Shown here: piece after piece, positions 17,478 through 47,047 of the stretch
Position numbering within the stretch: the stretch's first letter is position 1
Layout: each line of letters starts with the position of its first letter
Origin: a virus
DNA: 64,000 nucleotides
Strand: one strand, 5' to 3'
IMG/VR virus record: IMGVR_UViG_3300045988_180644
The notes under the pieces: generated by a model
The model's input: the letters and a program-made list of their open reading frames with translations, nothing else
Database searches by the model: none
What the model was told of the DNA's origin: nothing
Translations under genes and position numbers: made by a program

Positions 17478-17726
17478 TCAGCTAATTTCACAATTATCTA
17501 ATATGTCAGTCATAGTCATATTGTTATCTACCAATCTAAAGTATCCACAGCCTTTAAGATTTAGCAAAACACCAACAGTATTTATTGTTTCCCTTGAAAA
17601 TCCGTTGTCTCGAAATGCCCTTAGTATTTCAAAATCCGTCTGTGTTATCACGATTTTCTTGTTTATAATGCTTTTAGGTTGACTTTCTATTGTTTCAGTG
17701 TAATCGTCCTCAAATCCTTCAAACAT
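17478..17726 (-). CDS. hypothetical protein
   Basis: 82 aa ORF. Confidence 0.5.
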   Translation of the reverse strand: MFEGFEDDYTETIESQPKSIINKKIVITQTDFEILRAFRDNGFSRETINTVGVLLNLKGCGYFRLVDNNMTMTDILDNCEIS

Positions 17727-17841
17727 TTAGCTCACTCCTTCTTTGATAATAAATTTAAAACTTAAGTCACCAAATTTGTTAAAATTAATATCTTCAAAAA
17801 ATCCATAATAATCTAATCCATTTATATAATTTTTGATTTCG

Positions 17842-18192
17842 TTAATCATTTTTATACTCCTCCTGATACACTAATGATTTTGTAATCGGGAATAAACGAT
17901 TTTCTTTATACTCTACATACCCAAATCCATAATCAATACACTTTTTATTTTCTTCTTCTAATTCAATAATGCTTCTAATTTTTACACACATTTTTAATTT
18001 ATTCTCCCAGACCCACATGCCAACTTTTAAATCTTCATATTTGTATGGGTTGGGATTAAAGTGCTCTTTTATTAAACTCTCTAAAATATCCAATTCTTTT
18101 GCACAAGATAAAGGATTCCTTAAGATATTCAACCATGCATTATAACACATGTCCTCAGTCAAACATTCACCTTTAGTCAACATCTTTATCAC
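17842..18192 (-). CDS. hypothetical protein
   Basis: 116 aa ORF. Confidence 0.55.
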   Translation of the reverse strand: MIKMLTKGECLTEDMCYNAWLNILRNPLSCAKELDILESLIKEHFNPNPYKYEDLKVGMWVWENKLKMCVKIRSIIELEEENKKCIDYGFGYVEYKENRLFPITKSLVYQEEYKND

Positions 18193-18460
18193 TCCTTTTG
18201 AACATCACTAATCTAACTATTTCGTATTCTTGAATTTCTTTATCTTCAAAAGGAAATTGATGGCAATATGGACATTTAATTGTTTCTAGCTTATCTTCAT
18301 TAGACAATCCATATCCTGTCCATGAAGAATCAATATCTATAACAACTGCATTTTCTTCGCATTCTTCGAAGCTGCAATTATCATAATAATCTCTTCCATC
18401 TCTAGCAAACATATTGATGTTAATATGGTTTAATTCTTTACCGCATTTTTCACATCTCAT
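18173..18460 (-). CDS. zinc-ribbon hypothetical protein
   Basis: CEKCGKEL...CPYCHQ paired CxxC. Confidence 0.55.
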   Translation of the reverse strand: MRCEKCGKELNHININMFARDGRDYYDNCSFEECEENAVVIDIDSSWTGYGLSNEDKLETIKCPYCHQFPFEDKEIQEYEIVRLVMFKRSDKDVD

Positions 18461-18750
18461 TCTTCATCACTCCCATATATTTCTTCCAACATTTCTTTTA
18501 CAGCTTCTATTGGGACCAACTCCTGCTCTCCAATGTGCCATCCTCTTGACTTTTCTTCAATGACCTTAAGATACTTTTCTTTCTCTTTCAGTTTTCTATC
18601 TTTGTATAATTCAAAATGCTCAAGCAAAATAGGAACTACTTCAATTGGTTTATCAGTTTCTTCATCATATCCAAAAGAAGTCAAATCATTATTTTCCAAT
18701 TCTTTGATGTAATTACCTAAAAACATCTGATTCATTGTATCTAGTTTCAT
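18457..18750 (-). CDS. hypothetical protein
   Basis: start set to ATG (MKLDTMNQMF) preceded by AGGAGGATTAAT. Confidence 0.55.
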   Translation of the reverse strand: MKLDTMNQMFLGNYIKELENNDLTSFGYDEETDKPIEVVPILLEHFELYKDRKLKEKEKYLKVIEEKSRGWHIGEQELVPIEAVKEMLEEIYGSDEE

Positions 18751-18760
18751 ATTAATCCTC

Positions 18761-19003
18761 CTAAAATACCAGCAATAATCTTTCTTCATTCAAATCATCT
18801 TGATGTATGACAACTTCTCTTCTTGTTCCATCCAACATCTCCACATACTCTTCATCAAGTGAAGAAATGTTTTCTGGTACCCATACACCCTGAATATCAA
18901 AAACTTCTCTCTTCTGTAAATCAACTTTACATAGTGCTTTGATATCGTGCTGTCCTTTGTTATATATTGAATGAAACCATGCAAAAACTATATTATTCAC
19001 CAT
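18761..19003 (-). CDS. hypothetical protein
   Basis: 80 aa ORF; preferred over overlapping alternate-frame 18790..18984. Confidence 0.5.
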   Translation of the reverse strand: MVNNIVFAWFHSIYNKGQHDIKALCKVDLQKREVFDIQGVWVPENISSLDEEYVEMLDGTRREVVIHQDDLNEERLLLVF

Positions 19004-19122
19004 TCATCCTCCTTACCTTAACTTTACATTTTTTGACTTTAGAACACTTTTTGTACTCAAAGAATGTTCTCCAGGCGATGCAGTATATCTCATTGCCTTT
19101 TGTAAAGCTATATGAGCATTCT

Positions 19123-19338
19123 TTACAACTTCTCATGCCCATTTTCTTCAACAGATACCTTAATTCCTGCTTCTTCTAATGCTGATAACAGTGTTTCAGG
19201 TGACTGTTTTGCCTTTTTCATAATTTTTGTGACCTTTAAAAGTTTCTTTCTCTTGATTCCATCAGTATGAATGATGAAAGTCTTTCCATCATGTTCAAAT
19301 AAGATATCATTACCTCTTCTTTCGTATTTTTTGTCCAT
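19123..19338 (-). CDS. hypothetical protein (first gene of an operon)
   Basis: start ATG (MDKKYERRGN) with GGAAAGGAGG RBS just downstream of leader cassette g. Confidence 0.55.
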   Translation of the reverse strand: MDKKYERRGNDILFEHDGKTFIIHTDGIKRKKLLKVTKIMKKAKQSPETLLSALEEAGIKVSVEENGHEKL

Positions 19339-19355
19339 AAATAACCTCCTTTCCA

Positions 19356-19420
19356 ACAAAAAAGACATGCCAAAGCACGTCTCAATTTCGTTTATAATTA
19401 CATATTTATTTTATCATATA
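19356..19420 (-). promoter_or_regulatory. leader cassette g (before 19123..19338; sits in a divergent intergenic region)
   Basis: TATATGATAAAATAAATATGTAATTATAAACGAAATTGAG + ACGTGC/GCATGTCT + T6; no upstream minus-strand gene to terminate. Confidence 0.65.
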
Positions 19421-19557
19421 TGTGTTTTGTTAAGAAAAAAGTATCCTGATGATGCAGACAGGATACTCCAAAAATATCTCACCAATGAGACAATCTTAGT
19501 TTATTCTATATTACATAAAATTTCAACTCATTCTTATATATAAATTTAAAAAGTTAT

Positions 19558-19586
19558 TTGACAATATGTTGTATACGACATATAAT
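19558..19586 (+). promoter_or_regulatory. consensus sigma-70 promoter of higBA
   Basis: TTGACA-17 nt-TATAAT, ~24 nt upstream of RBS. Confidence 0.7.
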
Positions 19587-19609
19587 ATAATTGAAAGATG
19601 AGGAGTATT

Positions 19610-19978
19610 ATGAATTTTGAAATAGAATTTTATGAAACAGAGAATGGACGTGAGCCAGCAAAAGAATTTATTTTATCATTAGAGCCTAAAATGCAAGCTA
19701 AAATGTTACATGAAATAGATTTATTGAAAGAAAATGGGATTTTTTTACGAGAACCACATACAAAAATGATTGAAAAAGGAATATATGAAATTCGAGCTAA
19801 ACAAGGAAGTAATATAAGTAGAGTTTTATACTTCTTCACTATAGGTCAAAGAATCATTCTTACAAATGGATTTATAAAGAAAACACAAAAAACACCTAAA
19901 AGATATATTAACTATGCAAAACAATGTAAGAAAGATTATGAAGCTAGGCATACTATGAAAAAGGAGGAGATTTTATGA
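19610..19978 (+). CDS. higB: type II toxin, HigB/RelE-ParE (Gp49-like) family
   Basis: MNFEIEFYETENGREPAKEFILSL...IYEIRAK...RVLYFF fits Gp49/HigB-type toxin; GAGGAG RBS; 4-nt ATGA overlap with antitoxin. Confidence 0.7.
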   Translation: MNFEIEFYETENGREPAKEFILSLEPKMQAKMLHEIDLLKENGIFLREPHTKMIEKGIYEIRAKQGSNISRVLYFFTIGQRIILTNGFIKKTQKTPKRYINYAKQCKKDYEARHTMKKEEIL

Positions 19979-20253
19979 GCAGTTATGATGATTTTAGAAA
20001 TAAGTTATTAGAAAATCCTGAAGTTAAAGCTGAGTATGAAGCAATGCAACCTGAATATGATATTATTCAAGCACTTATTGATGCAAGAAAACAACAGGGC
20101 TTAACACAAAAAGATTTATCTCATATTACAGGAATTACACAGGCTGATATTAGTAGAATTGAAAATGGAACACGAAATCCAAGTTTAGCTATGTTGAAAA
20201 GATTAGCTGATGGTATGGGTATGAGATTAAAATTAGAGTTTGTTAAAAAATAA
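19975..20253 (+). CDS. higA: HTH (XRE-family) antitoxin, HigA-like
   Basis: GLTQKDLSHITGITQADISRIENG helix-turn-helix; 92 aa. Confidence 0.75.
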   Translation: MSSYDDFRNKLLENPEVKAEYEAMQPEYDIIQALIDARKQQGLTQKDLSHITGITQADISRIENGTRNPSLAMLKRLADGMGMRLKLEFVKK

Positions 20254-20254
20254 A

Positions 20255-20281
20255 GAGTCTACCATAAGGTAGACTTTTTTC
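20255..20281 (+). terminator. intrinsic terminator between convergent higA and ClpC-like gene
   Basis: AGTCTACC-ATAA-GGTAGACT + TTTTTT; A-run on other side makes it potentially bidirectional. Confidence 0.7.
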
Positions 20282-20289
20282 GTATTCCA

Positions 20290-21528
20290 TTAAGCTATGT
20301 TGACCATATATTCATCGTTCTTGTTGTCTTTTCCTAACAAAGAAGTCACATAATCACTAGCAACCTCCAGATTAAACCTTTCCATATCCTCACATGCACA
20401 CCATGCCATTGTATAGTCGATGATGTCTAGTGCCTTGTCTGGAAAGTATCTATCTGGAATAGTCTTCGCCATAGAAATGACTTTTTCTATATCCTCTAAT
20501 TCAATGCTAACATGATGATACTTACAATATCCCTGCAACTTCTTTTGAATCATTGCAGGAATTTGAGAAGGTTTTGGCTCATGAATATGAATTCTTCTAA
20601 AACGTCTTGCTAAAGCCTTGTTTACCGCTAGATATCTGTCATATTCTTCTTCAGTCGTAGCAATGATGAACTTGTGTTTCCCTTGTGTCAAAATAGGTTT
20701 TAATATTTCTGACAAAGATGTACTCCCTTCACTGCTTCCTGCCTGTGTTAAAGAGTGGGCTTCATCAATGAATACGATAAGTTTTTTACCTTTGACTGCT
20801 TTCAAAAATCTTTGAATCTTCTCTTCAAATTCCCCTCTATATTTAGTACCAGCCACAGTTGCTGTCACATCTAGATTGACAATTTGGTATCCTTTGAGTT
20901 TTTGGGGAGGATTGTATCGAATCAGTCTAGCTAATTCTTCTACAATGGCACTCTTCCCTACCCCAGCCTTACCAAGAAGAGCAATATTAGCCTTATCCTT
21001 GCATGATAAACCAATAATCATCTGTTTAACCTCTTTGTCTCTGCCAAGAATTGTCTTGGTTTTGGCTGGTTTGATGATTTCCGTGAATGATTCACAACCT
21101 TTTATAGCCTTTAATGAACTTTCTTTTTCTCTTAGTTTGTCAACAACTTCATCAATGTCGACTCCCTCTTCCTTAAGGATTTCTACAGAGACAGATTCTG
21201 ACTCTAATAATGCAACGCACAATTCATCAATGTTTACTTTAGCCTTTTTCTTGTTTTCTAAGGCATTATTAAGAATCTTTTTAAAAACATCGCCATATTC
21301 TAAATAGAACGGCTGTACTTCCTTTTCTGGGAAGAAATATTCTACCCTTTTAGCAAAAGATGTATAATCAACTCCATACTTTTTTAGTTCCTTTGTTAAT
21401 AAAACATCCATTTGTAATAGAGCTAATAGTAAATGACATGTGTCAACTCTTTCGTGTCCTTTATCGAAACAGATAGATTCAGCTGTCACAATTGCTTTTT
21501 GACATTTTTCATCAAATTTATCTAACAT
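20290..21528 (-). CDS. ClpA/ClpC-like AAA+ ATPase, truncated: Clp N-domain repeats + D1 module only
   Basis: two Clp_N-like repeats (LLLALL...), Walker A GKAGVGKS, LIVFIDEAHSL Walker B, ARRF sensor; no D2 domain; 412 aa. Confidence 0.75.
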   Translation of the reverse strand: MLDKFDEKCQKAIVTAESICFDKGHERVDTCHLLLALLQMDVLLTKELKKYGVDYTSFAKRVEYFFPEKEVQPFYLEYGDVFKKILNNALENKKKAKVNIDELCVALLESESVSVEILKEEGVDIDEVVDKLREKESSLKAIKGCESFTEIIKPAKTKTILGRDKEVKQMIIGLSCKDKANIALLGKAGVGKSAIVEELARLIRYNPPQKLKGYQIVNLDVTATVAGTKYRGEFEEKIQRFLKAVKGKKLIVFIDEAHSLTQAGSSEGSTSLSEILKPILTQGKHKFIIATTEEEYDRYLAVNKALARRFRRIHIHEPKPSQIPAMIQKKLQGYCKYHHVSIELEDIEKVISMAKTIPDRYFPDKALDIIDYTMAWCACEDMERFNLEVASDYVTSLLGKDNKNDEYMVNIA

Positions 21529-29216: not shown

Positions 29217-29849
29217 CTAATGATTCTTGATATATGCTAGGTAAATGAATTCCAACATGGCTACGAGTCTTTCTGTTCTGACAGGAACTGATACTCTAGC
29301 TGTTTTACCATCTCTTGTTTCTGAAACACCAATCATCCAGTTTCCTTCACGATTTCCTGGAGTGACTGTAAATGTTCTTTGGAATGCCTTCCCTTCAAAT
29401 TCGGGTTGTTTAAATTCACTAAAGACTGCCGAAGCAAATTTCTTCTTTCCATCTCTCATGGCTTCTCTTTCTGTTGCTTCTAAATCAAAGATATAGCCTG
29501 ACGTAAAGGCCCATCTTAAATATAGTAAATTCTTAAAGTCCAAATAGTAAGGGATGAACGCCTTTTGTTTATTGGATTCGTCCAATTCGACGAAGTTCAT
29601 ATGAACCTTACAGTCCATACCAGCATCATCATCAATCAAATTAAATCCATCCTGTAAAACTTCTAAGAATACATCTCCGCCTGTTTTTCTTTGAGCATAT
29701 ACTTTATCAATTTTCTTAGCATATTCTTTCTTCACTTCTTTTTCTTTGACTTCAGTTTTAACTTCTGAATTCATAGTTTTAGGAGTATATGTTTTCATTT
29801 CTACTCCCTTGTTTTCTTTATTTGCTTTTGCTTTGTCTTTTAATCCCAT
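29217..29849 (-). CDS. hypothetical protein
   Basis: 210 aa ORF, AAAGGAGG RBS after leader cassette j. Confidence 0.6.
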   Translation of the reverse strand: MGLKDKAKANKENKGVEMKTYTPKTMNSEVKTEVKEKEVKKEYAKKIDKVYAQRKTGGDVFLEVLQDGFNLIDDDAGMDCKVHMNFVELDESNKQKAFIPYYLDFKNLLYLRWAFTSGYIFDLEATEREAMRDGKKKFASAVFSEFKQPEFEGKAFQRTFTVTPGNREGNWMIGVSETRDGKTARVSVPVRTERLVAMLEFIYLAYIKNH

Positions 29850-29865: not shown

Positions 29866-29934
29866 ACAAAAAAGACACACCTTATGTGCGTCTTTTCTTT
29901 CGTATATGATTTACATATATATTTTATCATATAT
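29866..29934 (-). promoter_or_regulatory. leader cassette j (before 29217..29849)
   Basis: TATATGATAAAATATATATGTAAATCATATACGAAAGAAAAG + ACGCAC/GTGTGTCT + T6. Confidence 0.6.
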
Positions 29935-29959: not shown

Positions 29960-29981
29960 AAAAAGAACTCAGGTTCATATG
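29960..29981. repeat. perfect 22-bp palindrome CTCAGGTTCATATGAACCTGAG (parS-like) just downstream of parB
   Basis: exact inverted repeat; 6 further copies of core GGTTCATATGAAC in 32.3-34.5 kb. Confidence 0.7.
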
Positions 29982-29991
29982 AACCTGAGAA

Positions 29992-31014
29992 TTATTTTAA
30001 ACTTTGTCTTAGTTTTTTTATATCAGCCTCTAAGGATAGTAAATAATTTTTAAATTCCTTTTTTTCATCATTATCAGCAAAGATGATTTTATCAGGTGTT
30101 AAATTTGTAGTTATTGTCTTAAATGTTCTCACTTTTTTTATGATTTCATTGCCAGTGTAATTTTTATCCTTATTCCCTTCAATTTCCATTTGTAAATCAA
30201 AAAGATATTTTGAGAATCCTTTTCTATCCATTTTGCTAAGAGCCTTCATGACTCTATCTTGTTCTGCATCAGTTAGCGAAGATATTAAATAAGCTTGATT
30301 AAAATTAATGAGTTCTTTTCTGAAGTATTCCTTAATGAGAGTATTATGTGCAAAGTATATTGCGTTAACTTTTTTGGCTTTTGCTAGTGAATATGAAAAA
30401 CCAAATCTTTTCATTTTATTAACAACATATTCAGCTTTATTAACTACACCTTCAAGTTTTGTGTAAACTCCATTTTCATATCCAAAAATATAGTCGTAAT
30501 GTATCATGAGCTTTTCAGCACTTAAGTTTCTAGACAGAAGGTTTGTATCATGATATACCTTTTCTATTTCCTTTTGTGTTGCCCCGCGTGGTACTACAAT
30601 GGCTGGTATCTTCGAAAACTTTCTTCTCTTGGCTTCATTTCTTTCTTCAATAGCTCTTTTATATAGATTATGAACAGCTCTAAATCTCTGAGACCCAGCT
30701 CTTATCTCGTATTTTCCCGTTTCATTTCCTTCTTCATCTACTTCTCTTATGACATTGATTGGCTGTAACACCCCTACTAACCAAATAGATTCCTGAAACT
30801 CCTCCATTTCTTCTGGGGTCTTATTTGGATATTCATTCTTTTTATTATCAACAATTTTATCTAAGGGGATGTATTGCATCTCATATTCTTCAAGTTCATC
30901 TAAAGTTTTTTTATCATTAGCTTCAAATGGTGTTTCAAATGAGTTCCCAAAAAAATCAATTGATTCAACTGGCTCCATGTCACCAACACTTAAACTTCTT
31001 TTATTCCTTGCCAT
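29992..31014 (-). CDS. parB: ParB/Spo0J-like partition protein
   Basis: LQPINVIRE...YEIRAGSQRFRAV resembles ParB N-terminal box; downstream of parA; perfect palindrome parS-like site just 3' of it. Confidence 0.65.
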   Translation of the reverse strand: MARNKRSLSVGDMEPVESIDFFGNSFETPFEANDKKTLDELEEYEMQYIPLDKIVDNKKNEYPNKTPEEMEEFQESIWLVGVLQPINVIREVDEEGNETGKYEIRAGSQRFRAVHNLYKRAIEERNEAKRRKFSKIPAIVVPRGATQKEIEKVYHDTNLLSRNLSAEKLMIHYDYIFGYENGVYTKLEGVVNKAEYVVNKMKRFGFSYSLAKAKKVNAIYFAHNTLIKEYFRKELINFNQAYLISSLTDAEQDRVMKALSKMDRKGFSKYLFDLQMEIEGNKDKNYTGNEIIKKVRTFKTITTNLTPDKIIFADNDEKKEFKNYLLSLEADIKKLRQSLK

Positions 31015-31017
31015 TTT

Positions 31018-32160
31018 CTATGCCTCCTTTTTCCCTTGCAAGAGCTTTGACACATATTCATCAACCATTAATAATTCTTCGGTAGATAAACCATCCATTT
31101 TATCTTCTACATGTCTCTGAGCTCTAATTCTTTCAGCCGCTTTTTGATTTTCCTCTGTTCTCTTATTAGCACTTACTATTCCTGCTAATAAATCCATTTC
31201 ATACTCAATTTTTTCTGCATCAAAATATTCTTTAACAAAATTTATGATACTTGTTCTATAATCATCTTTAACTTGTGAAGCTAAATAATCCCAAGTATTT
31301 GAATCAACAACTAATTGTTTATCTACAATTTTAGTATCAAAAACTTTAATACCTGCTACATCAGAAATACTATTATTAATTTCTTCAAGGACTATTCTAT
31401 CGTTACTTCTTACTCTTTTATATTTATTACATAAAATACCTTTAATCTCAAAATCTGGTATATACTTCTTTACACTTTCTACATTTCTTAAAACGGTATT
31501 TATTCCTTCAGCTGAATTCATATCCATAAAGGTAGGAATAATTAATTCTCTAGACGCAGCAATTCCATTAAGCGATAATACTCCTAAAGATGGAGGGCAG
31601 TCTATAAAGATAAAGTCATAATCGAAATACTCTTCAATTTGTTTTACAACTAATTGCAACATGATACGATTGTACTTTTTCCCTTCATCTGTTAGTATAT
31701 AATGTCTTTCTACATGATTGTCAGGAGTTTGACTCATAAAGGCTAGTTCAATAAAAGATGTATCTTGTCCGACTCCAGGAATGATATCACATCCAAAAGG
31801 AATATCATTATATATCCACTTCATTCCATTTCTTTCAGCTTTTGTATATGTTGGAGTTCTTTTTGAATTGCTTATATATTGTATAGGAGGTAACTTTCCC
31901 CATCTTTCGAAATAAGACACAAGATATGCCATCGTTGGAATTCCATGTTCTTTCCCAAATTCCAATGCACCCATTCGATTCGTGTTAATATTAAACATAC
32001 TCGTTAAAGAGTTCTGAGGGTCCCAATCTATCAGGAGAACCTTCTTATGAAAAACTGTCCCCATAATATTAGCAATATTTGCTGTCAATGTCGTTTTACC
32101 TATTCCACCTTTATTATTATAAATGAGTATGACATGTGTTTTATTTTTATTTGTTGACAT
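31018..32160 (-). CDS. parA: ParA/Soj-family partition ATPase (long C-terminal extension)
   Basis: deviant Walker A NNKGGIGKTT; start set to ATG (MSTNKNKTHVIL) with AAAGGAG RBS rather than tracker start 32292. Confidence 0.8.
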   Translation of the reverse strand: MSTNKNKTHVILIYNNKGGIGKTTLTANIANIMGTVFHKKVLLIDWDPQNSLTSMFNINTNRMGALEFGKEHGIPTMAYLVSYFERWGKLPPIQYISNSKRTPTYTKAERNGMKWIYNDIPFGCDIIPGVGQDTSFIELAFMSQTPDNHVERHYILTDEGKKYNRIMLQLVVKQIEEYFDYDFIFIDCPPSLGVLSLNGIAASRELIIPTFMDMNSAEGINTVLRNVESVKKYIPDFEIKGILCNKYKRVRSNDRIVLEEINNSISDVAGIKVFDTKIVDKQLVVDSNTWDYLASQVKDDYRTSIINFVKEYFDAEKIEYEMDLLAGIVSANKRTEENQKAAERIRAQRHVEDKMDGLSTEELLMVDEYVSKLLQGKKEA

Positions 32161-32308
32161 CCTGATTCTCCTTTCATATTCACACTTTATTATATTAAAA
32201 TTATATATTTTTTTCAACTTGTATTTACATTCCCTTGAATTTGTGCGTATCGTTTTCGCGGCCCCAAAATCTTTTGATTTTGCCAGGTTCACTTTTCATT
32301 TTAGATAA

Positions 32309-32326
32309 AGTTCATATGAACCTGGT
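32309..32326. repeat. parS-like palindrome copy
   Basis: AAGTTCATATGAACCTGG. Confidence 0.6.
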
Positions 32327-32540
32327 CATCATGTCATGTATCTTAAAAATATGACTTTTAGATTTCTTTAATAAATTTAAGATATTTTTTAAAAACATAG
32401 CAATTTCTTAAATACGACTGACTTATGACAATTGTTTCTAACAAATTTATAAAAGACCTTATTGTTGGTATATAAAACTCTTAACCTTCTTCTCAATACT
32501 TTGTTTTCTATATAAACTCTATCATTAAACTTAATATCTT

Positions 32541-32558
32541 TTGAGTTCATATGAACCT
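32541..32558. repeat. parS-like palindrome copy
   Basis: TGAGTTCATATGAACCTC. Confidence 0.6.
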
Positions 32559-33218
32559 CTATACAAACTCATCATATTCTTTTATCTAATGATATGAATT
32601 GTGATTGACTTTTAAAGGACTTCTTCCTTATGTCATATAAATTATAACTTTATATTCTAAGATAATTTTTTCTTGTTTTATAAGGTTTTTTGATAGGTTT
32701 TTTATAGTATTTTGAGTCCATCATGTTTTTATTGTTTTTTAATAGAATTTTTCTCATTTCTATTTAGTTTTCTATAATTATCTATCAGAGTCCCACTCCT
32801 ACAATCCCCACCAAACTCTCTCCATCATCCTACAACCACCTCATGTATTTGGATAGGTTATTAATAGGATTTTTATAATTTATCAGACATATCAAGTCCC
32901 CTATTCAAAATCTATCCTCTTCCTTACACTCTCGCTTTCATTTCATATACTCATACCTTACTTTCCACCCACCTCCCTCAAATTAATCCATTATCAGAGC
33001 ATAACAAAAATTAGTGGTTTATAGATAGATTGTTAATAGGATTGTAAATAGAATCGAGTCATATGTTGTTCATGAGTAAGACAGGATTCAATTCTATCCA
33101 TCCCCTATTCACTTCCATTAAAACTCAAGCATAACTTTAGTTAATAGGACAGTATTACTTTAAGTTCTTAATAGATAATTGATAGAATCAATATTACACT
33201 TCTATAAAAGTTATGACT

Positions 33219-33236
33219 GAGGTTCATATGAACTTC
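33219..33236. repeat. parS-like palindrome copy
   Basis: GAGGTTCATATGAACTTC. Confidence 0.6.
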
Positions 33237-33525
33237 AAGCTTATATATTAAAAAAAGTATAGACGTACTATTAACAATCTATCCACAATCATAAACTAAA
33301 GCTATACTTGAGAATAGAAGCAAGATAGAATATTAATAGAATTGTATAAAACGAATCATAGATAAGTTTCCTGATGTCTTTTGTGAATATAACAATCCTA
33401 TTCAAAATCTATCATAACTCAAACTTATTTCATAATACTGAAATTAGATTTGTGAGAGGATTTACAATAGAAATGTGTATCCTTTCAAACTCTTCCAACA
33501 TCTAAATAAACACTTTTATATATTC

Positions 33526-33542
33526 GGGTTCATATGAACTTC
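33526..33542. repeat. parS-like palindrome copy
   Basis: GGGTTCATATGAACTTC. Confidence 0.6.
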
Positions 33543-33760
33543 TATATAGATTTGCAAGAGCTATGTCTATATTTTGATTTTAGAAAGATATATTTAGATT
33601 CCTATGATGAATAGATGCTCGATAGAAGCTAAAGTATAACTTGAGTCGTTGTAAAATTCTATCAACAACCTTTCATAAATCAATTCATGTAAACGAAGAA
33701 AAAATTTGAAGAGTTAATAATGGGGTTTTGATAGAGGGTTAATAGGATTTATTTATATAT

Positions 33761-33777
33761 AGGTTCATATGAACTTC
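33761..33777. repeat. parS-like palindrome copy
   Basis: AGGTTCATATGAACTTC. Confidence 0.6.
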
Positions 33778-34456
33778 ATGAATTAAAAAGCACAGAATAC
33801 TAATTTATATCTAATCACTCTATCAATAACCTATCAAAGCTCCATTCATAAGAGTAAAAATACTTTCTACTTAAATAAAGTATAACTTAAGTTATAAAAA
33901 AAATCTATCAATAATCTTTCAATCAACCTTCATATTATTTTTGTGTAAGATGAGCTTAGAACAGGTGGAGGATTTAGATAGATGATGGATAATGTTAGTG
34001 ACATAAATAAATCATTTCTATTTCAATAAAGAAAATCCTATCAACTCTCTATCAAAATTCCTTCAATCTCAATTCATATAAACTATAGCTTGAGTTATAA
34101 AAAGAACAACTCCTCATAAATTCCATTCATCTCCATTCTGAATATAAAAATCTTATTGCATAGAAATAGTTTCAATAGAAGATAAAAAGAATATGAGAAG
34201 ATTATATGTAATAGGTACAATATTATCAAATACCAATGTGACACAATCCAAACTCTTATCAAAACAAAAAAAGGATAACGATATTATATGAATGAGATTA
34301 TGATAGGAGTAGGAAGGTGATAAAACGAATCATAATACATCATCAAAACTCTATCAAAAAGCCTAATGATATTGAGTTGTAAAAGTTTGGATGATGATAG
34401 ACTTTAGATGGGATTGAATGGGTTAAATAAATGGGAGGGTTTGGAAAGAATGTGGG

Positions 34457-34476
34457 GAGGTTCATATGAACCTGAG
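34457..34476. repeat. parS-like palindrome copy
   Basis: GAGGTTCATATGAACCTGAG. Confidence 0.6.
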
Positions 34477-34798
34477 AATAGGATAATAAGGGATATAGAT
34501 AGACTTGTATTGGAAAAACATTAAAAAAATACGATAAATCGCATATTTATCAAGAAAATAGTATTTTTAAGGAAAAAGAGGGAAAACCAATTAAAAACTA
34601 TCAAAAACCCAATAAGAAATAGGATAAAACTTAAAGTTATTATTCTTATTGTCTAAGGAAGAAGTCCTCTTAAAGTCAGCCCAATCATTTTATTTCACTC
34701 ATCCCATAATATGATACAATAGTAATGTAAATTAATACGAATAGAGACATGTAGCACTATACATGTCTCTTTTTTTATGAACTAAAAGGAGGATTAAA

Positions 34799-37003: not shown

Positions 37004-37576
37004 GTGTTTCGTATAAGCCTAAAAAAAGTTTCACGTGAAACGAAATCCATCAAAAAACTCCCATCAATCCAACTCTTTTTAGACGTCTCCTCTACAAACA
37101 CAGGAGTTGCTATCTTGTTGGAAGATGGAAGGGTGATGATGGACTCAATCAACCTCAAAAGATTCCAAAGACCACCCTGTATGTCTTTGACGGATTATGA
37201 AAAGGTTAAAATAGGAGTCATCAAGGCATATCTAGATAAGCTCGAAGAGGAATACAGGATTGATTTGGTATGTGTTGAGGGTATATTCATTCGCCCTGGA
37301 TATAATCAATCTTCTCAAATCCTTCTCAAACTCCATGGATTTTTGATGGGATATTTTCTGGATACACCATTCATATCAATACCACCATCAAACATTAAAA
37401 AAGCTATAGCAGACAAGGGTAATGCAAAAAAGGAAGAAGTGAGAGGAAGATTAGAAGAGGTTTACCAATTTCATTTTCGAAGTGATGATGAAAGTGATGC
37501 AATGGCTCTGCTCGTCACTTACAGAGGCCATAGTCAATATCAAATAGAACAGAAGGAGGATACTTATGGAATATGA
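37004..37576 (+). CDS. RuvC-like Holliday junction resolvase
   Basis: LFLDVSSTNTGVAIL (RuvC motif I-like), CVEG, ESDAMAL; apparent GTG start. Confidence 0.6.
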   Translation: MFRISLKKVSRETKSIKKLPSIQLFLDVSSTNTGVAILLEDGRVMMDSINLKRFQRPPCMSLTDYEKVKIGVIKAYLDKLEEEYRIDLVCVEGIFIRPGYNQSSQILLKLHGFLMGYFLDTPFISIPPSNIKKAIADKGNAKKEEVRGRLEEVYQFHFRSDDESDAMALLVTYRGHSQYQIEQKEDTYGI

Positions 37577-43001: not shown

Positions 43002-44624
43002 ATGGACAAATATTATAAATATGAAGACAAAATAGTCAATTCCTTTCTTTTTGTACCAAAGTTCTTGTTTTCTGACGAACGCTTTATGAAGTTAAGTGTC
43101 ACAGAGAAACTGATTTATTCCTTATATCTACACAGATATACAATAAGCCAATATCATGACGAGATAGGACGATATATCATTTTTACTGATGATGATGTTG
43201 TTGACAAACTTTACATCACTTCAAGGACTTGTATCAGAGCTAGAAAAAAACTCGAAGAAGCAAATCTCATCAAAATCCAAAAAACTCTAACATATAACAA
43301 AATCTATCTTGTGAATGTACTGAAAGCTTCTGAAAGTGAACATTTCTTTAACGAAAATGATTTAGAGGGATTAAAATTTTATCAGTTCCCAAGAGAATTC
43401 TTTGAAAATACTTATAAAAACTTAACACTGAATGCCAAGATGGTCTATACAGTTTTTCTAGATACTTTAACTCTTAGTCAAATGAATTACTTTGTAGATT
43501 CTAACAAAAGGATTTATTTTCAGGAGAACATGGACATACAGATAAAAAAACTAAATCTAACAAAGCCGACAATACGTGAGGCAAGATACCTCTTGATGGT
43601 ATGTGGATTGTTGTTAGAGTATAAAACTTTCACTGAAGATATCAGATATTATCCATTAAAGCTGTCTCATTATACAGATAGAACTGCTGAATATAAGAAA
43701 TGTAAGACAGCGAAAGAGAAAAAAGCATTTATAGAGAAGACAACAAAACAAGACAAAGATGAGTTAATACTGAATCCATTAAAAATAGGTGTAAAACTTC
43801 AGGACTATAGAAAAGACGCAGGACTTACACAGACAAGACTAATCTCTTTATTAAGAGAAAGAAATGTAGATATTACTCAGCAGACTTATTCTGCGTATGA
43901 AAATGGAAAGTTACATATCAAAAAAGAACTATATGATATCTGTTTAGAGTGTATACAAGACGAAAAGAAAAAAATGTCTGAGTATACAATACCAAAAGAA
44001 AATATTGTCATAAATGACAACCCTAAAGAAAAAAATTGTCATGACATACAAGATAAAAACAAAGAAATGTCAGTAGAGGAAGAAAAATTAGTCACGAATG
44101 AAAAGAAAGAATTGACATCTCCTGAAAGAAAAGAAAGTCATATAAATTATACTTATACAAACAAAACAGAAAATAATTATAATGAAAAATTAATAGAATT
44201 AATTAATTATATTAATAACATTATAAATACTTCACATATTCTTTTAGAAGAAAAAGATTACTTAACTGCATGCTTTGATAAACTTCGTATATATAAACGA
44301 TTCTATCTCAATACTTCACAAGAACTATTCACAACAGAAAGATTATATGAAATCTTACAGAAGATGAATGAAAAAAATAAAGTTGAAGAAGTGTGTTTGA
44401 AGATTTTAGATAGAATTGAAACAAGTCACTATCAATTTAAAACACCAGATGCAGCCATCAATTGTTTTATTACTTTCTTGCTTAATGAACTAAAAGTAGA
44501 GGAAAAACAAGCTGATGATGTCCCAGAATGGTTTTCTAAAAAGAAATTTCAGTTTAATAGATTACCTGAACGAAAAATAGAAGTGTCAGATGAAATAAAA
44601 GACTATAAATGGTGGGAGGAATAA
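43002..44624 (+). CDS. rep: RepA_N-family replication initiator with duplicated N-domain and internal HTH
   Basis: YYKYEDKIVNSFLFVPKFLF...LSVTEKLIYSLYLHRY...IGRYIIFT matches Firmicutes RepA_N signature; second copy FYQFPREFF...LTLNAKMVYTVFLD; XRE-like HTH GLTQTRLISLL. Confidence 0.7.
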   Translation: MDKYYKYEDKIVNSFLFVPKFLFSDERFMKLSVTEKLIYSLYLHRYTISQYHDEIGRYIIFTDDDVVDKLYITSRTCIRARKKLEEANLIKIQKTLTYNKIYLVNVLKASESEHFFNENDLEGLKFYQFPREFFENTYKNLTLNAKMVYTVFLDTLTLSQMNYFVDSNKRIYFQENMDIQIKKLNLTKPTIREARYLLMVCGLLLEYKTFTEDIRYYPLKLSHYTDRTAEYKKCKTAKEKKAFIEKTTKQDKDELILNPLKIGVKLQDYRKDAGLTQTRLISLLRERNVDITQQTYSAYENGKLHIKKELYDICLECIQDEKKKMSEYTIPKENIVINDNPKEKNCHDIQDKNKEMSVEEEKLVTNEKKELTSPERKESHINYTYTNKTENNYNEKLIELINYINNIINTSHILLEEKDYLTACFDKLRIYKRFYLNTSQELFTTERLYEILQKMNEKNKVEEVCLKILDRIETSHYQFKTPDAAINCFITFLLNELKVEEKQADDVPEWFSKKKFQFNRLPERKIEVSDEIKDYKWWEE

Positions 44625-45820: not shown

Positions 45821-45903
45821 GTCCTCGTGATGGAACAGGTAGACATGCATGGCTTAGACCCATGTGCTTATGCGTAAGGGTTCGAATCCCTTCGAGGACA
45901 CCA
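45821..45903 (+). tRNA. tRNA-Leu (anticodon TAG), class II long variable arm
   Basis: hand-folded cloverleaf: acceptor GTCCTCG/CGAGGAC, anticodon stem CATGG/CCATG loop CTTAGAC, GGTTCGAATCC T-arm, CCA encoded. Confidence 0.7.
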
Positions 45904-45947
45904 ATATCACTCCAATGCTTGTAAAGAGTGAATATATGAAATTATAT

Positions 45948-46020
45948 GAACATCTAGCATAATGGAAATGCGTAGGGTTCAGCGCCCTTCATGATACTGG
46001 TTCAAGTCCAGTGGTGTTCA
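45948..46020 (+). tRNA. atypical tRNA-like gene (anticodon loop TTCAGCG; no encoded CCA)
   Basis: acceptor GAACATC/GATGTTC, D-arm TAGCATAATGGAAATGC, T-arm ACTGG-TTCAAGT-CCAGT; paralog of 46396..46468. Confidence 0.45.
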
Positions 46021-46070
46021 AATGCCAGATAAGAAATAAAGCTAAAACAGGGATAATCATATCCCTACAT

Positions 46071-46208
46071 GGTCCTTTAGCTCAGTAGGTAGAGTAGATG
46101 ACTGTTATACATCACTACATCAAATAAAGAAAGTTAAGTACGTGATGTATGTCAACACTTTGTGTTGATAAATCATGGTTACAGGTTCGAATCCTGTAGG
46201 GACCACCA
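46071..46208 (+). tRNA. tRNA-Asn-like (GTT) gene carrying ~62-nt insertion in variable region
   Basis: acceptor GGTCCTT/AGGGACC+A+CCA pairs across 138 nt; D-arm TAGCTCAGTAGGTAGAG; anticodon loop CTGTTAT; insert forms 9-bp hairpin ATACATCAC/GTGATGTAT. Confidence 0.45.
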
Positions 46209-46236
46209 AATATACATTTTTTGTGACAAACAATAT

Positions 46237-46313
46237 TGGTGAGTAGCGTAGTTGGTTAGCGCAATCGGCTGTTAACCGATGGGTCGTGGGTTCAAGTCCC
46301 ACCTCGCCAGCCA
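46237..46313 (+). tRNA. tRNA-Asn (GTT)
   Basis: acceptor TGGTGAG/CTCGCCA, anticodon stem ATCGG/CCGAT loop CTGTTAA, CCA encoded. Confidence 0.7.
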
Positions 46314-46314
46314 T

Positions 46315-46390
46315 GGCCTGTTCGTCTAAAGGTTAGGACACAACCCTTTCACGGTTGCAATGTTGAGTTCAAGTCTCACACAGGTCACCA
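46315..46390 (+). tRNA. tRNA-Glu (TTC)
   Basis: anticodon stem CAACC/GGTTG loop CTTTCAC; GTCTAAAGG D-loop. Confidence 0.65.
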
Positions 46391-46395
46391 AAAAT

Positions 46396-46468
46396 AGACA
46401 TCTAGCATGATGGTAATGCAAAGGGTTAATTACCCTTTATGATATCGGTTCAAGTCCGATGATGTTCA
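46396..46468 (+). tRNA. atypical tRNA-like gene (anticodon loop TTAATTA; A1-C72 mismatch; no CCA)
   Basis: paralog of 45948..46020: same acceptor/D-arm, T-arm ATCGG-TTCAAGT-CCGAT. Confidence 0.45.
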
Positions 46469-46528
46469 GAATCTAATAATTATATAGACTATGTATTATG
46501 TATTGTTATTAGGGCTTAGCCCTAAAGT

Positions 46529-46605
46529 GGACATTTAGCTCAGGTGGTTAGAGCCATCGCCTCATAAGCGATTGGTCGGAGGTTCAAGTCCTTCAATGTC
46601 CACCA
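46529..46605 (+). tRNA. tRNA-Met (CAT), elongator-type
   Basis: acceptor GGACATT/AATGTCC, anticodon stem ATCGC/GCGAT loop CTCATAA. Confidence 0.7.
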
Positions 46606-46615
46606 TATAAAGATG

Positions 46616-46689
46616 GTGAGGTTAGCTTAATGGTAAAGCACTGGACTGTGGCCCCAGTTATACGAGTTCGATTCTCGTACTTCACACCA
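46616..46689 (+). tRNA. tRNA-His (GTG)
   Basis: anticodon loop CTGTGGC; extra 5' G at 46615 (His G-1). Confidence 0.65.
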
Positions 46690-46694
46690 TATAT

Positions 46695-46771
46695 TGGAAA
46701 GTAGCTCAGTTTGGTAGGGCGCACGCTTTGGGAGCGTGAGGGCATGGGTTCAAATCCCGTCTTTCCAGCCA
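46695..46771 (+). tRNA. tRNA-Pro (TGG)
   Basis: acceptor TGGAAAG/CTTTCCA, anticodon stem CACGC/GCGTG loop TTTGGGA. Confidence 0.7.
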
Positions 46772-46776
46772 TATAT

Positions 46777-46853
46777 GCCACCATAGCACAACTGGCAGTG
46801 CAACTGACTTGTAATCAGGAGGTTGGAGGTTCGATTCCTTCTGGTGGCACCAT
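46777..46853 (+). tRNA. tRNA-Thr (TGT)
   Basis: acceptor GCCACCA/TGGTGGC, anticodon loop CTTGTAA. Confidence 0.7.
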
Positions 46854-46857
46854 ATTT

Positions 46858-46944
46858 GGAGAGGTATGCCTAGTGGCGATGGCACCTGACTGTAAATCAG
46901 GCACGTTAGAAACACCGTAGGTTCGACTCCTACTCTCTCCACCA
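46858..46944 (+). tRNA. tRNA-Tyr (GTA), long variable arm
   Basis: anticodon stem CCTGA/TCAGG loop CTGTAAA. Confidence 0.7.
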
Positions 46945-46952
46945 TTTCAAAT

Positions 46953-47041
46953 GCCCAAATGGTGAAATCAGGTAGACACACTGGACTTAAAATCCAGAGG
47001 AAAATAATTCCGTGCCAGTTCGAGTCTGGCTTTGGGTACCA
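46953..47041 (+). tRNA. tRNA-Leu (TAA), long variable arm
   Basis: anticodon stem CTGGA/TCCAG loop CTTAAAA. Confidence 0.7.
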
Positions 47042-47047
47042 TATTTT

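What the first reader, a model, noticed from the sequence alone, without database searches (positions are those of the whole stretch)
29960..34500. Putative partition/origin locus: parAB plus 7 copies of a GGTTCATATGAACC palindrome and dense iterons
A perfect 22-bp palindrome lies immediately 3' of parB. Six further copies of the core are spread through a 2.5-kb non-coding region upstream of parA, interleaved with more than 15 CTATCAA-type iterons, ~6 TTAATAGGA repeats and 4 AGTATAACTTGAGT repeats. This is the architecture of a plasmid or phage-plasmid centromere plus origin. A RepA_N initiator is encoded 9 kb away. Together these suggest the element replicates and segregates as an episome.
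Basis: seen in the sequence. Interest (0 to 1): 0.6.

Follow-up and report, generated by a model that had tools for sequence, protein, structure and literature searches.

The report
Partition locus with scattered centromere palindromes
A large (about 230 kb), undescribed mobile element of the gut bacterium Massilimicrobiota carries a very divergent parA-parB segregation cassette ringed by eight copies of one palindrome that probably serve as its centromere, next to a 2.6-kb gene-free stretch packed with a second repeat whose role (possibly a replication origin) is not settled.

Summary
GTTCATATGAAC occurs 8 times in 64 kb, all within 29.6-34.5 kb (0.3 expected).

"CTATCAA iterons" and "TTAATAGGA repeats" are two halves of one 22-bp bipartite unit. 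It occurs 12 times in the 2.6-kb gap and once in the other 57.7 kb.

parA (31018-32160) and parB (29992-31014) are genuine but very divergent. Only four ParB clusters turned up among 5.8 billion proteins.

Evidence that the palindromes are the centromere:
- A relative with 67% ParB identity keeps them in an otherwise barely alignable gap.
- They vary less than their surroundings among strains (p=0.005).
- A 32-39% ParB clade carries a different scattered palindrome (TTGCAC-NN-GTGCAA).

The origin claim is not established:
- GC skew follows gene orientation.
- DnaA boxes are not enriched.
- The RepA_N gene holds its own 31-nt x3.9 tandem repeat, where that family's origins normally lie.

Phage versus plasmid is undecided. 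Independent contigs of 226-257 kb suggest a separate replicon, but this is unproven.

Verdict: a new member of a known kind (ParABS with scattered parS), with an unexplained iteron field. Moderate interest.

The parts
31018..32160 (-). parA: 380-aa Walker-type partition ATPase. The true start is the ATG at 32160, preceded by a GGAG ribosome-binding site. The N-terminus is MSTNKNKTHVILIYNNKGGIGKT, and there is no N-terminal HTH.
   Evidence: PF13614 at 9e-30 and PF01656 at 9.6e-15. phrog_164, ParA-like, at 2.7e-41. Gene callers give 380 aa in L001-L005. The deviant Walker A motif KGGIGKT is read directly from the sequence.
29992..31014 (-). parB: 340-aa ParB-family protein. Only the N-terminal domain (residues about 45-120) is recognisable. 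The arginine-patch motif reads GSQRFR instead of GERRxR.
   Evidence: PF02195 at 36.2 bits, above the 26.3 cut-off. phrog_4715, ParB-like. The best matches among solved structures are the Noc and Spo0J N-terminal domains only. Translation. Only 4 clusters were found among 5.8 billion proteins.
29968..29989 (.). Perfect 22-bp palindrome CTCAGGTTCATATGAACCTGAG: a parS-like site. On the - strand it is also the hairpin of an intrinsic terminator (followed by TTCTTTTTT) ending the parAB transcript.
   Evidence: The RNA fold is -15.7 kcal/mol, z = -5.96. It is present in L001-L008 and absent from L009.
29594..29607 (.). parS-like site AGTTCATATGAACC inside the 210-aa ORF 29217-29849 (-). The codons read K V H M N F.
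   Evidence: It is kept exactly in L009. In the strains that are 97.6% identical it reads GTTCATATTAAC, so it is the least secure of the eight sites.
32309..32322 (.). parS-like site AGTTCATATGAACC, about 93 nt upstream of the -35 element of the parA promoter-like site.
   Evidence: It aligns with a copy in L009 (columns 148-161).
32544..32557 (.). parS-like site AGTTCATATGAACC.
33221..33234 (.). parS-like site GGTTCATATGAACT, flanked by inverted bipartite repeat units at 33170-33185 (-) and 33268-33283 (+).
   Evidence: Inverted repeat I11.
33527..33540 (.). parS-like site GGTTCATATGAACT. It is degenerate (one substitution) in strains L003, L005 and L006.
33762..33775 (.). parS-like site GGTTCATATGAACT, 18 nt from bipartite unit 33730-33745.
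34458..34473 (.). 16-bp perfect palindrome AGGTTCATATGAACCT: the outermost right-hand parS-like site.
   Evidence: A 19-nt inverse match to 29968-29986 (I20).
32189..32217 (-). Sigma-70-like promoter candidate for parAB (TTGAAA-17-TATAAT, 11 of 12 matches).
   Evidence: This is a consensus match only. The block is conserved in L009 (columns 1-90).
32680..34610 (.). Field of 12 (strict) to 22 (relaxed) bipartite 22-bp units. The consensus is AATCCTATTAAnAAtCTATCAAA, two CTATYAA half-sites in 11-bp phase. Units occur in both orientations, 60-170 nt apart, interleaved with the palindromes.
   Evidence: 12 in the gap against 1 in the other 57.7 kb; shuffles give 0.03. Among close strains the units are not significantly more conserved than the rest of the gap (8.9% against 11.9% variable columns, p=0.12).
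32605..32630 (+). Left arm of a conserved inverted repeat bounding the core of the gap (TTGACTTTTAAAGGACTTCTTCCTTA), followed by ATAACTTTA.
   Evidence: (I1). The same pair is present in L009.
34654..34679 (-). Right arm of the same inverted repeat (3 mismatches).
33128..34095 (+). Five copies of a third motif, AAGYATAACTTGAG (small inverted repeat CAAGT-ATA-ACTTG), at 33128, 33295, 33633, 33879 and 34082.
   Evidence: D6, D7, D20. Similar copies were read by eye in the L009 gap. Function unknown.
34710..34770 (+). Outward-facing promoter and leader module at the right edge of the gap: extended -10 TATGATACAAT, then ATGTAAAT, then a hairpin with a T-run, then the ribosome-binding site of the exonuclease gene.
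29868..29931 (-). The same promoter and leader module, facing left, between parB and the 210-aa ORF.
43002..44624 (+). RepA_N-family initiator gene, 540 aa: RepA_N domain at residues 14-83, a DnaD-like region at 113-213, and a weak, sub-threshold XRE-type HTH (PF13560) match at 262-308.
   Evidence: PF06970 at 2.6e-16. phrog_7882. Distant relatives are staphylococcal RepA_N plasmids at about 29% identity.
43951..44071 (.). 31-nt tandem repeat, 3.9 copies, inside the RepA_N ORF. The period is not a multiple of 3. This is a candidate set of Rep boxes, that is, an intragenic origin.
   Evidence: TRF score 96. It is the strongest tandem periodicity in the whole window: 64 of 93 matches at lag 31, against a mean of 26.2 and sd of 4.9. 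The family rule is from PMC5703833.

Best explanation
**The partition cassette.**
- The locus is the active-partition (ParABS, Walker type) cassette of a roughly 230-kb, tRNA-rich, probably extrachromosomal element of Massilimicrobiota, a gut member of the Erysipelotrichales.
- The eight R-GTTCATATGAAC-Y palindromes lie on both sides of parAB over 4.9 kb. They are its parS centromere sites.
- Inferred mechanism, not shown: ParB dimers load on these sites and nucleate a partition complex over the whole region. ParA then positions that complex so that each daughter cell inherits a copy.
- The copy directly after parB also forms the terminator hairpin of the operon.

**The gene-free gap.**
- The 2.6-kb stretch upstream of parA is a control region built from degenerate repeated modules.
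- Besides six of the palindromes it holds 12-22 bipartite 22-bp units: two CTATYAA half-sites one helical turn apart.
- These units most likely bind a second, unidentified sequence-specific protein as a head-to-tail pair, in the manner of winged-helix initiators or regulators.
- The gap sits at the point from which the two gene arms diverge. Its most likely role is therefore replication origin or copy-number control coupled to partition. This step is inference.
- The cognate origin of the RepA_N initiator encoded about 8 kb to the right of the gap is more probably the 31-nt tandem repeat inside its own gene.
For: **Shown here.**
- ParA and ParB domains pass the Pfam cut-offs, and the genes form an operon 3 nt apart.
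- There are 8 exact palindromes, all within 4.9 kb around parAB, against 0.3 expected.
- L009 (ParB 67% identical) keeps 4 exact and 2 one-mismatch copies in its 2.0-kb gap, plus the intragenic one. The gaps are barely alignable beyond the first roughly 600 nt.
- Among close strains, variable columns number 2 of 84 in the palindromes against 266 of 2227 elsewhere in the gap (Fisher p=0.0046).
- The 32-39% ParB clade (L010, L015) has a different palindrome, TTGCAC-NN-GTGCAA. L010 has 4 copies and L015 has 3 variant copies, all within about 8 kb upstream of its parAB.
- That clade shares only parA and parB with the window. The palindrome therefore travels with, and changes with, the par cassette.
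- The palindrome resembles the canonical parS, with a TTCA..TGAA core and 10 of 16 positions identical (read from the sequence).
- The bipartite unit is enriched about 260-fold in the gap.
- In L010, 20-nt iterons arrayed directly upstream of a Rep_3 gene recur next to the palindromes. Interleaving of initiator sites with par palindromes therefore occurs in that second par-cassette clade as well.
- RepA_N intragenic repeat: with the family rule from PMC5703833.

**Replicon size.** Independent contigs measure 226,682, 231,374, 232,006 and about 256,500 bp. None exceeds 1 Mb in more than 100 assemblies.
Against: - No binding data exist. The DNA-binding part of ParB has no recognisable homology, and the structure model was too poor to use (pLDDT 52.7).
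- Its nucleotide-pocket motif is GSQRFR rather than GERRxR.
- The site 3' of parB is missing in L009. The intragenic site and site 33528 are mutated in some close strains.
- Covariation rests on only two ParB clades.
- The iterons are not significantly conserved among strains (p=0.12). Only 2 strict copies are found in the L009 gap.
- They are scattered, not tandem. No initiator gene adjoins them.
- DnaA boxes are not enriched, and GC skew gives no independent support for an origin.
- Episomal state and topology were not shown.
Confidence: 0.6

Rival explanations
1. One reading: the 2.6-kb gap is the vegetative origin (oriV), fired by the RepA_N initiator encoded about 8 kb to its right (9 kb from the end of the reported region). 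On this reading the CTATCAA-type repeats are that protein's iterons.
For: - RepA_N is the only initiator recognised in the window and 10 kb either side.
- It has two winged-helix-like regions, RepA_N at 14-83 and DnaD-like at 113-213. These could match a bipartite site with an 11-bp phase.
- The gap lies at the switch in gene strand.
- It contains AT-rich stretches of 7.5-13% GC.
Against: - RepA_N origins characterised so far lie inside the rep gene (PMC5703833).
- This gene has exactly such a repeat, and it is the strongest tandem repeat in the window.
- The sequence of that repeat does not resemble the gap unit.
- GC skew follows gene orientation.
- The units are scattered and lie in both orientations.
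Confidence: 0.25
2. The palindromes are operators of a transcriptional regulator that controls the outward-facing promoters around the gap. That regulator would be either ParB acting as a KorB-like global repressor or an unrelated HTH protein. On this reading the palindromes are not primarily a centromere.
For: - Three sites lie upstream of promoters: 29968 is about 50 nt from the -10 element at 29921-29931; 32310 is about 93 nt from the parA -35; 34460 is about 250 nt from the promoter at 34710.
- An XRE-type HTH gene is present at 19975-20253.
Against: - Distances to the promoters are irregular, and no site overlaps a -35 or -10 element.
- Five sites have no recognisable promoter nearby.
- The sites cluster only around parAB, while the same promoter module occurs 11 times across the window.
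- The palindrome changes together with the ParB clade.
Confidence: 0.12
3. The gap is a phage-specific cis element (packaging site or lytic origin), or it encodes non-coding RNAs transcribed inward from the conserved TTGACT-containing inverted repeats at its edges.
For: - The conserved inverted repeats at 32605 and 34679 both begin with a -35-like TTGACT and face inward. They are also present in L009.
- A third conserved motif, AAGYATAACTTGAG, remains unexplained.
- The gene content resembles a large phage: 25 tRNAs, DUF551, and nucleotide-metabolism genes.
Against: - No Rfam family matches.
- Promoter-like sites are not enriched in the region: 32 found against 38.6 in shuffles.
- No terminase or structural gene was seen.
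- The element is absent from IMG/VR.
- 2.6 kb is far larger than known pac or cos sites (general knowledge).
Confidence: 0.08

Closest known systems
Prophage-plasmid N15 sop system (SopA, SopB and four separate IR centromere sites)
   Same: A Walker-type partition operon whose centromere is several separate copies of one 16-18-bp palindrome (IR1-4), not a tandem array (PMC7205306). The replicon is an extrachromosomal mobile element.
   Different: - N15 SopB is 49% identical to F SopB. The ParB here has no close characterised relative.
- Here the 8 sites all lie within 4.9 kb around parAB. In N15, by my recollection rather than any test here, the sites are spread across the genome.
- The site sequence is unrelated.
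- A phage nature is not shown for this element.
Chromosomal and secondary-replicon ParABS (B. subtilis Spo0J with parS; Burkholderia and Vibrio cholerae chromosome 2 with replicon-specific parS)
   Same: - Replicon-specific 14-16-bp palindromes scattered around parAB and near the replication control region.
- The half-site core TTCA..TGAA matches the canonical TGTTNCACGTGAAACA at 10 of 16 positions.
- The ParB N-terminal domain is most similar to those of Noc and Spo0J.
   Different: - The central bases are TA instead of CG.
- The ParB C-terminal two-thirds is unrecognisable.
- The GERRxR motif is altered to GSQRFR.
- ParA is long (380 aa), with insertions.
RK2 KorB and its OB sites
   Same: One ParB-family protein with many copies of a short palindrome placed at varying distances from promoters, combining partition and regulation (general knowledge).
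   Different: The OB sites are distributed around the whole plasmid. Regulation by this ParB has not been tested. No KorA or IncC relatives were recognised.
pSK41-type RepA_N theta replicons
   Same: An initiator with an N-terminal RepA_N domain and a block of direct repeats in the central, poorly conserved part of its own gene (PMC5703833).
   Different: - The protein is 540 aa, with an extra DnaD-like region and a weak, sub-threshold HTH match. pSK41 Rep is 319 aa.
- Identity is about 29%, over the N-terminal third only.
- The partition system here is ParAB, not the ParM/ParR of pSK41.
- No antisense RNA was identified.
[quoted passage not shown]
   Same: Repeated units of about 22 bp with two half-sites one helical turn apart, in a long AT-rich gene-free region beside par genes. 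Hodor megaplasmids of 211-389 kb from the human gut have Rep_3, ParA, ParB and a predicted oriV of this kind (PMC12934698).
   Different: - No Rep_3 gene is present here.
- The units are scattered in both orientations rather than tandem.
- No T4SS or sortase genes were seen in the part examined.

Membership tests
Type I (Walker ParA) ParABS partition system | ParA/Soj-family ATPase with the deviant Walker A motif KGGxxK[ST] | tested here: met
   KGGIGKT at residues 17-23. PF13614 at 104 bits and PF01656 at 55 bits, both above their cut-offs. No NCBIfam equivalog cut-off is reached.
Type I (Walker ParA) ParABS partition system | ParB with a ParB/Srx N-terminal domain, encoded directly downstream of parA | tested here: met
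   PF02195 at 36.2 bits against a 26.3 cut-off. parA ends at 31018 and parB starts at 31014.
Type I (Walker ParA) ParABS partition system | Conserved arginine patch (GERRxR) for CTP binding in ParB | tested here: inconclusive
   The motif reads GSQRFR in the window protein and GHKRTR in P0003. The glycine and two arginines are kept; the glutamate and the first arginine are not.
Type I (Walker ParA) ParABS partition system | HTH DNA-binding domain and C-terminal dimerisation domain in ParB | tested here: inconclusive
   No sequence match beyond residue about 120. The AlphaFold model is all-helical there but has pLDDT below 50.
Type I (Walker ParA) ParABS partition system | Cis-acting centromere: repeated inverted-repeat sites near the operon, specific to the ParB lineage | tested here: met
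   8 sites around parAB. They are kept in the 67% relative, and a different palindrome is found in the 32-39% clade. Binding itself is not testable here.
Type I (Walker ParA) ParABS partition system | ParB binds the sites, and the cassette stabilises a replicon | not testable with these tools
   Needs EMSA or ChIP and a plasmid-stability assay.
Iteron-controlled theta origin | Multiple direct repeats of 17-22 bp | tested here: met
   12 strict and 22 relaxed bipartite units. However, they are scattered and lie in both orientations.
Iteron-controlled theta origin | Initiator gene adjacent to the iterons | tested here: not met
   The flanking genes are parA and a DnaQ-like exonuclease. The nearest initiator is 8.2 kb away. 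No Rep_3-like protein was found by Pfam, NCBIfam or tblastn.
Iteron-controlled theta origin | DnaA boxes and an AT-rich unwinding element | tested here: inconclusive
   There is one DnaA box with at most 1 mismatch in the gap, against 27 in the rest of the window, so no enrichment. AT-rich stretches of 7.5-13% GC exist at 32186, 32336-32356 and 32635.
RepA_N replicon (pSK41, pAD1 type) | Initiator with an N-terminal RepA_N domain | tested here: met
   PF06970 at 59.7 bits against a cut-off of 30.
RepA_N replicon (pSK41, pAD1 type) | Origin made of direct repeats in the central part of the rep gene | tested here: met
   31-nt x3.9 repeat at 43951-44071, corresponding to amino acids about 317-357. 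Origin function is not testable here.
Phage-plasmid | Phage structural and packaging genes on the same replicon as the plasmid maintenance genes | tested here: inconclusive
   None was found in the roughly 84 kb examined, out of about 230 kb. The element is absent from IMG/VR. About 150 kb could not be inspected.

The most novel reading that the evidence does not exclude
The gene-free region is a composite centromere and origin. ParB-parS complexes and the binding sites of a replication initiator or controller are deliberately interleaved, so that partition-complex assembly gates replication, as with ParB2-RctB crosstalk on Vibrio cholerae chromosome 2. This would belong to a previously undescribed family of roughly 230-kb tRNA-rich extrachromosomal elements (possibly jumbo phage-plasmids) of gut Erysipelotrichales. 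The element also carries a canonical host-type parS at 37028-37041 and so might recruit the host Spo0J/SMC machinery as well.
Probability: 0.2. Interest if true: 0.6.

Novelty: new member of a known kind. Interest (0 to 1): 0.4.

Why it matters
- It gives a concrete, testable centromere (R-GTTCATATGAAC-Y) and a maintenance module for a widespread but undescribed element of about 230 kb in a human and animal gut Firmicute.
- The ParB lineage is very isolated: four clusters in 5.8 billion proteins. Two clades have different cognate palindromes, which is a small natural experiment in ParB-parS specificity.
- The cassette could serve as a stabilising module for genetic tools in Erysipelotrichales.
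- The unexplained bipartite repeat field and the separate intragenic RepA_N repeat raise a testable question: does the element have two origins, or an origin plus a copy-control array?
- None of this overturns current understanding of partition systems.

Tried and rejected
- **Nucleotide similarity.** The 6.3-kb locus had no match in the phage or plasmid collections.
- **ParB protein search.** Against phages and plasmids it gave only weak N-domain matches.
- **Relatives in public collections.** None in IMG/VR for ParB, ParA or the RecD2-like helicase. None in GTDB representative genomes for ParB or RepA_N.
- **Metagenome scan with the ParB alignment.** It returned a truncated L015-type contig with no upstream region, a 1.2-kb fragment that was not examined, and one distant locus with no repeated palindrome.
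- **Rfam on the region.** Nothing near any gathering score.
- **Alternative genetic codes for the gap.** Prompted by the TTA-anticodon tRNA. No convincing ORFs appeared, and TAA is the main stop codon.
- **Small ORFs in the gap.** Not conserved between relatives.
- **GC skew as origin evidence.** Rejected, because the skew follows gene orientation on both arms.
- **DnaA-dependent origin.** Rejected, because DnaA boxes are not enriched.
- **AlphaFold model of ParB from a 4-sequence alignment.** Mean pLDDT was 52.7, so no fold search was run.
- **Hidden initiator near the gap.** Lenient Pfam and NCBIfam scans found none. tblastn of the L010 and L015 proteins against the window matched only ParA and ParB.
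- **Promoter-like sites.** Not enriched in the region.
- **Literature.** Searches for Massilimicrobiota with 'plasmid' or 'phage' found nothing relevant.

Full report
**1. Observation**

*Palindrome*
- GTTCATATGAAC occurs exactly 8 times in the 64-kb window. The core starts are 29595, 29973, 32310, 32545, 33222, 33528, 33763 and 34460. There are none elsewhere.
- Shuffles allowing up to one mismatch give 0.30 matches. The composition-based expectation for exact copies is about 0.008.
- With one flanking base the sites read R-GTTCATATGAAC-Y.
  - The three left sites are AGTTCATATGAACC.
  - The three right sites are the reverse complement, GGTTCATATGAACT.
  - The two outermost intergenic sites are perfect over 22 bp (29968-29989) and 16 bp (34458-34473).
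- The 22-bp copy starts 3 nt after the parB stop codon. On the - strand it is followed by TTCTTTTTT. It therefore scores as an intrinsic terminator for parAB and folds at -15.7 kcal/mol, z = -5.96.

*The gap*
- The stretch from parA to the next gene (32161-34798) has no open stretch above 67 codons.
- No convincing ORF appears if TAA, TAG or TGA is read as sense.
- The 53- and 63-aa ORFs that gene callers place there are unrelated between relatives. They begin at the ATG of the palindrome.

*Repeats in the gap*
Its consensus is AATCCTATTAAnAAtCTATCAAA: two CTATYAA half-sites 11 bp apart, found in both orientations.
- The strict form, CTATY-N-A-N4-CTATY, occurs 12 times in the gap and once in the other 57.7 kb. 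Shuffles of the gap give 0.03. A relaxed form gives 22 units.
- A third motif, AAGYATAACTTGAG, occurs five times.
- The core of the gap is bounded by a conserved inverted repeat, TTGACTTTTAAAGGACTTCTTCCTTA, at 32605 and 34679.

**2. The genes**
- ORF 31018-32160 (-) is a 380-aa Walker-type ParA. Evidence: PF13614 at 9e-30, phrog_164 at 2.7e-41, and KGGIGKT at residues 17-23.
- ORF 29992-31014 (-) is a 340-aa ParB-family protein. Only the N-terminal domain is recognisable: PF02195 at 36.2 bits against a 26.3 cut-off.
  - The best matches among solved structures are the N-terminal domains of Noc and Spo0J.
  - Its arginine-patch motif reads GSQRFR.
- The lineage is very isolated. Two searches of 5.8 billion proteins found only four clusters.
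- An AlphaFold model built from these four sequences was too poor to use (pLDDT 52.7).
- The RepA_N ORF is real: 43002-44624, PF06970 at 2.6e-16.

**3. What the element is**
- Exact copies of ParB occur on human-gut metagenome contigs.
- Members of the RepA_N cluster are annotated from Massilimicrobiota sp. An142 and from a Massilimicrobiota timonensis MAG.
- The longest independent contigs measure 226,682, 231,374, 232,006 and about 256,500 bp. None exceeds 1 Mb in more than 100 assemblies. This suggests a separate replicon of about 230 kb but does not prove it.
- The window and 10 kb either side encode the following:
  - 25 tRNAs
  - a RecD2-like helicase, RecJ-like, DnaQ-like and RuvC-like nucleases, and a SpoVG-like protein
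  - a Clp-type ATPase, thymidylate kinase, a flotillin-like protein
  - many small genes of unknown function
- No capsid, terminase, tail, conjugation or integrase gene was seen.
- The element is absent from IMG/VR, from GTDB representative genomes and from the phage and plasmid nucleotide collections.
- Phage, plasmid or phage-plasmid therefore remains open.

**4. Are the palindromes the centromere?** Three lines of comparative evidence say yes.

(a) *Retention in a diverged relative.*
- L009 has a ParB 67% identical to the window's.
- It has the same gene order and a 2.0-kb gap that aligns only over its first roughly 600 nt.
- That gap still holds 4 exact and 2 one-mismatch copies, and L009 also keeps the intragenic copy.

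(b) *Conservation among close strains.*
- Strains 93-98% identical in the gap were compared.
- Variable columns number 2 of 84 in the palindromes against 266 of 2227 in the rest of the gap (Fisher p=0.0046).

(c) *Covariation with the ParB clade.*
- ParBs only 32-39% identical (L010; L015-L017) are surrounded by a different scattered palindrome, TTGCAC-NN-GTGCAA.
- L010 has four copies and L015 has three variant copies, all within about 8 kb upstream of parAB.
- Those elements share nothing with the window except parA and parB.
- The palindrome therefore moves with, and changes with, the par cassette.

Two further points:
- The site resembles the canonical parS (TGTTNCACGTGAAACA) at 10 of 16 positions, with the same TTCA..TGAA core.
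- Known systems with the same logic include the four separate IR sites of prophage-plasmid N15 (PMC7205306). Replicon-specific parS sets of multi-replicon bacteria and the KorB OB sites of RK2 are further examples (general knowledge).

Caveats:
- There are no binding data.
- The DNA-binding part of ParB is unrecognisable.
- The site after parB is absent from L009.
- Two sites are mutated in some close strains.
- Only two clades support the covariation.

**5. Is the gap the origin?** This is not established.
- The cumulative GC-skew minimum lies at 33-34 kb. However, genes on the minority strand of each arm carry the skew of their own orientation. The skew therefore only restates the strand switch.
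- DnaA boxes are not enriched: 1 in the gap against 27 elsewhere.
- The bipartite units are scattered, lie in both orientations, and have no initiator gene next to them.
- They are not significantly more conserved than the rest of the gap among strains (p=0.12).
- The RepA_N gene contains a 31-nt tandem repeat of 3.9 copies at 43951-44071.
  - Its period is not a multiple of three.
  - It is the strongest tandem periodicity in the whole window: 64 of 93 matches, against a mean of 26.2 and sd of 4.9.
  - In pSK41-type RepA_N plasmids the origin is a set of Rep boxes in the centre of the rep gene (PMC5703833).
  - The cognate origin of this initiator is therefore more likely intragenic.
- On the other side, L010 has 20-nt iterons arrayed directly upstream of a Rep_3 gene, and these recur beside its palindromes. 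Initiator sites interleaved with par palindromes are thus also seen in that clade. By analogy, the window's bipartite units are probably sites for a replication or copy-control protein.
- The 11-bp phase of two similar half-sites fits head-to-tail binding by winged-helix domains. This is inference.
- No candidate protein was found near the gap.

**6. Comparison and novelty**
- The locus meets the sequence-level criteria for a Walker-type ParABS system: ParA, ParB N-terminal domain, operon order and lineage-specific palindromes.
- Two criteria remain inconclusive: the CTP motif and the HTH.
- It does not meet the criteria for a classical iteron origin, because there is no adjacent initiator and no DnaA-box cluster.
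- The RepA_N gene meets both sequence-level criteria of its family.
- I classify the finding as a new member of a known kind. It has a new parS sequence, a very divergent ParB, and a still unexplained repeat field.

**7. Verdict**
The partition locus and centromere are likely; the origin, its RepA_N link and a phage-plasmid nature are unproven.
- Interest is moderate, at 0.4.
- The most novel reading not excluded is a composite centromere-origin that couples partition to replication control, in a new family of giant elements of gut Erysipelotrichales. I give it a probability of about 0.2.

Noticed in passing
window 37028-37041 (inside the 5' end of the RuvC-like ORF 37004-37576): An exact copy of GTTTCACGTGAAAC, the 14-bp core of the canonical chromosomal parS. 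About 1-2e-4 copies are expected by composition. It is present in all close strains that cover the position. L009 has it with one change, and the four fully overlapped codons are identical. The element may also recruit the host Spo0J/ParB-SMC system.
   Followed up: partly
window 8381, 11767, 14836, 16559, 19396, 21587, 24463, 29909, 63838 (- strand); 34710, 36228 (+ strand): Eleven copies of a stereotyped promoter and leader module, always pointing in the direction of the genes. The layout is TATGnTAnAAT, N4, ATGTAAAT, ATAAACGA, then a GC-rich hairpin whose sequence varies while the stem is kept, then T6-8, then AAAGGAGG, then ATG. 0.39 copies are expected by chance. A terminator-like hairpin between the -10 element and the ribosome-binding site suggests antitermination or attenuation control, or a 5' stabiliser. 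The same module is present in L009.
   Followed up: partly
window 45821-51833, especially 47801-47873: An array of 25 tRNA genes. One is predicted to have anticodon TTA, which would make it an ochre (UAA) suppressor. TAA is nevertheless the commonest stop codon of the long ORFs, at 14 of 22. Global recoding is therefore unlikely.
   Followed up: partly
window 43951-44071: A 31-nt tandem repeat of 3.9 copies inside the RepA_N gene. It is the strongest tandem periodicity in the window and the likely intragenic origin.
   Followed up: yes
window 32605-32630 and 34654-34679; L009 equivalents: A conserved inverted repeat, TTGACTTTTAAAGGACTTCTTCCTTA, bounds the 2-kb core of the gap. Each arm is followed about 12 nt later by ATAACTTTA. 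Both arms face inward and begin with a -35-like TTGACT. Function unknown.
   Followed up: partly
L001-L003, L005 at locus coordinates about 13,600-21,000, against window 20290-21528: Strain-variable accessory region. A type I restriction HsdR gene (970-1012 aa) sits where the window and L004 have a Clp-type AAA ATPase and an XRE-type HTH gene.
   Followed up: no
L010 and L015-L017 (ParB 509-511 aa): A second family of elements carries a related parAB. It also has Rep_3 with tandem 20-nt iterons, DNA polymerase III alpha, a Toprim primase, anaerobic ribonucleotide reductase and a ribosome hibernation factor. Its own palindrome is TTGCAC-NN-GTGCAA.
   Followed up: partly
window 33861-34360: A hypervariable sub-region of the gap among otherwise 93-98% identical strains, with 20-39 variable columns per 100 nt. 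The flanking palindromes stay intact.
   Followed up: no
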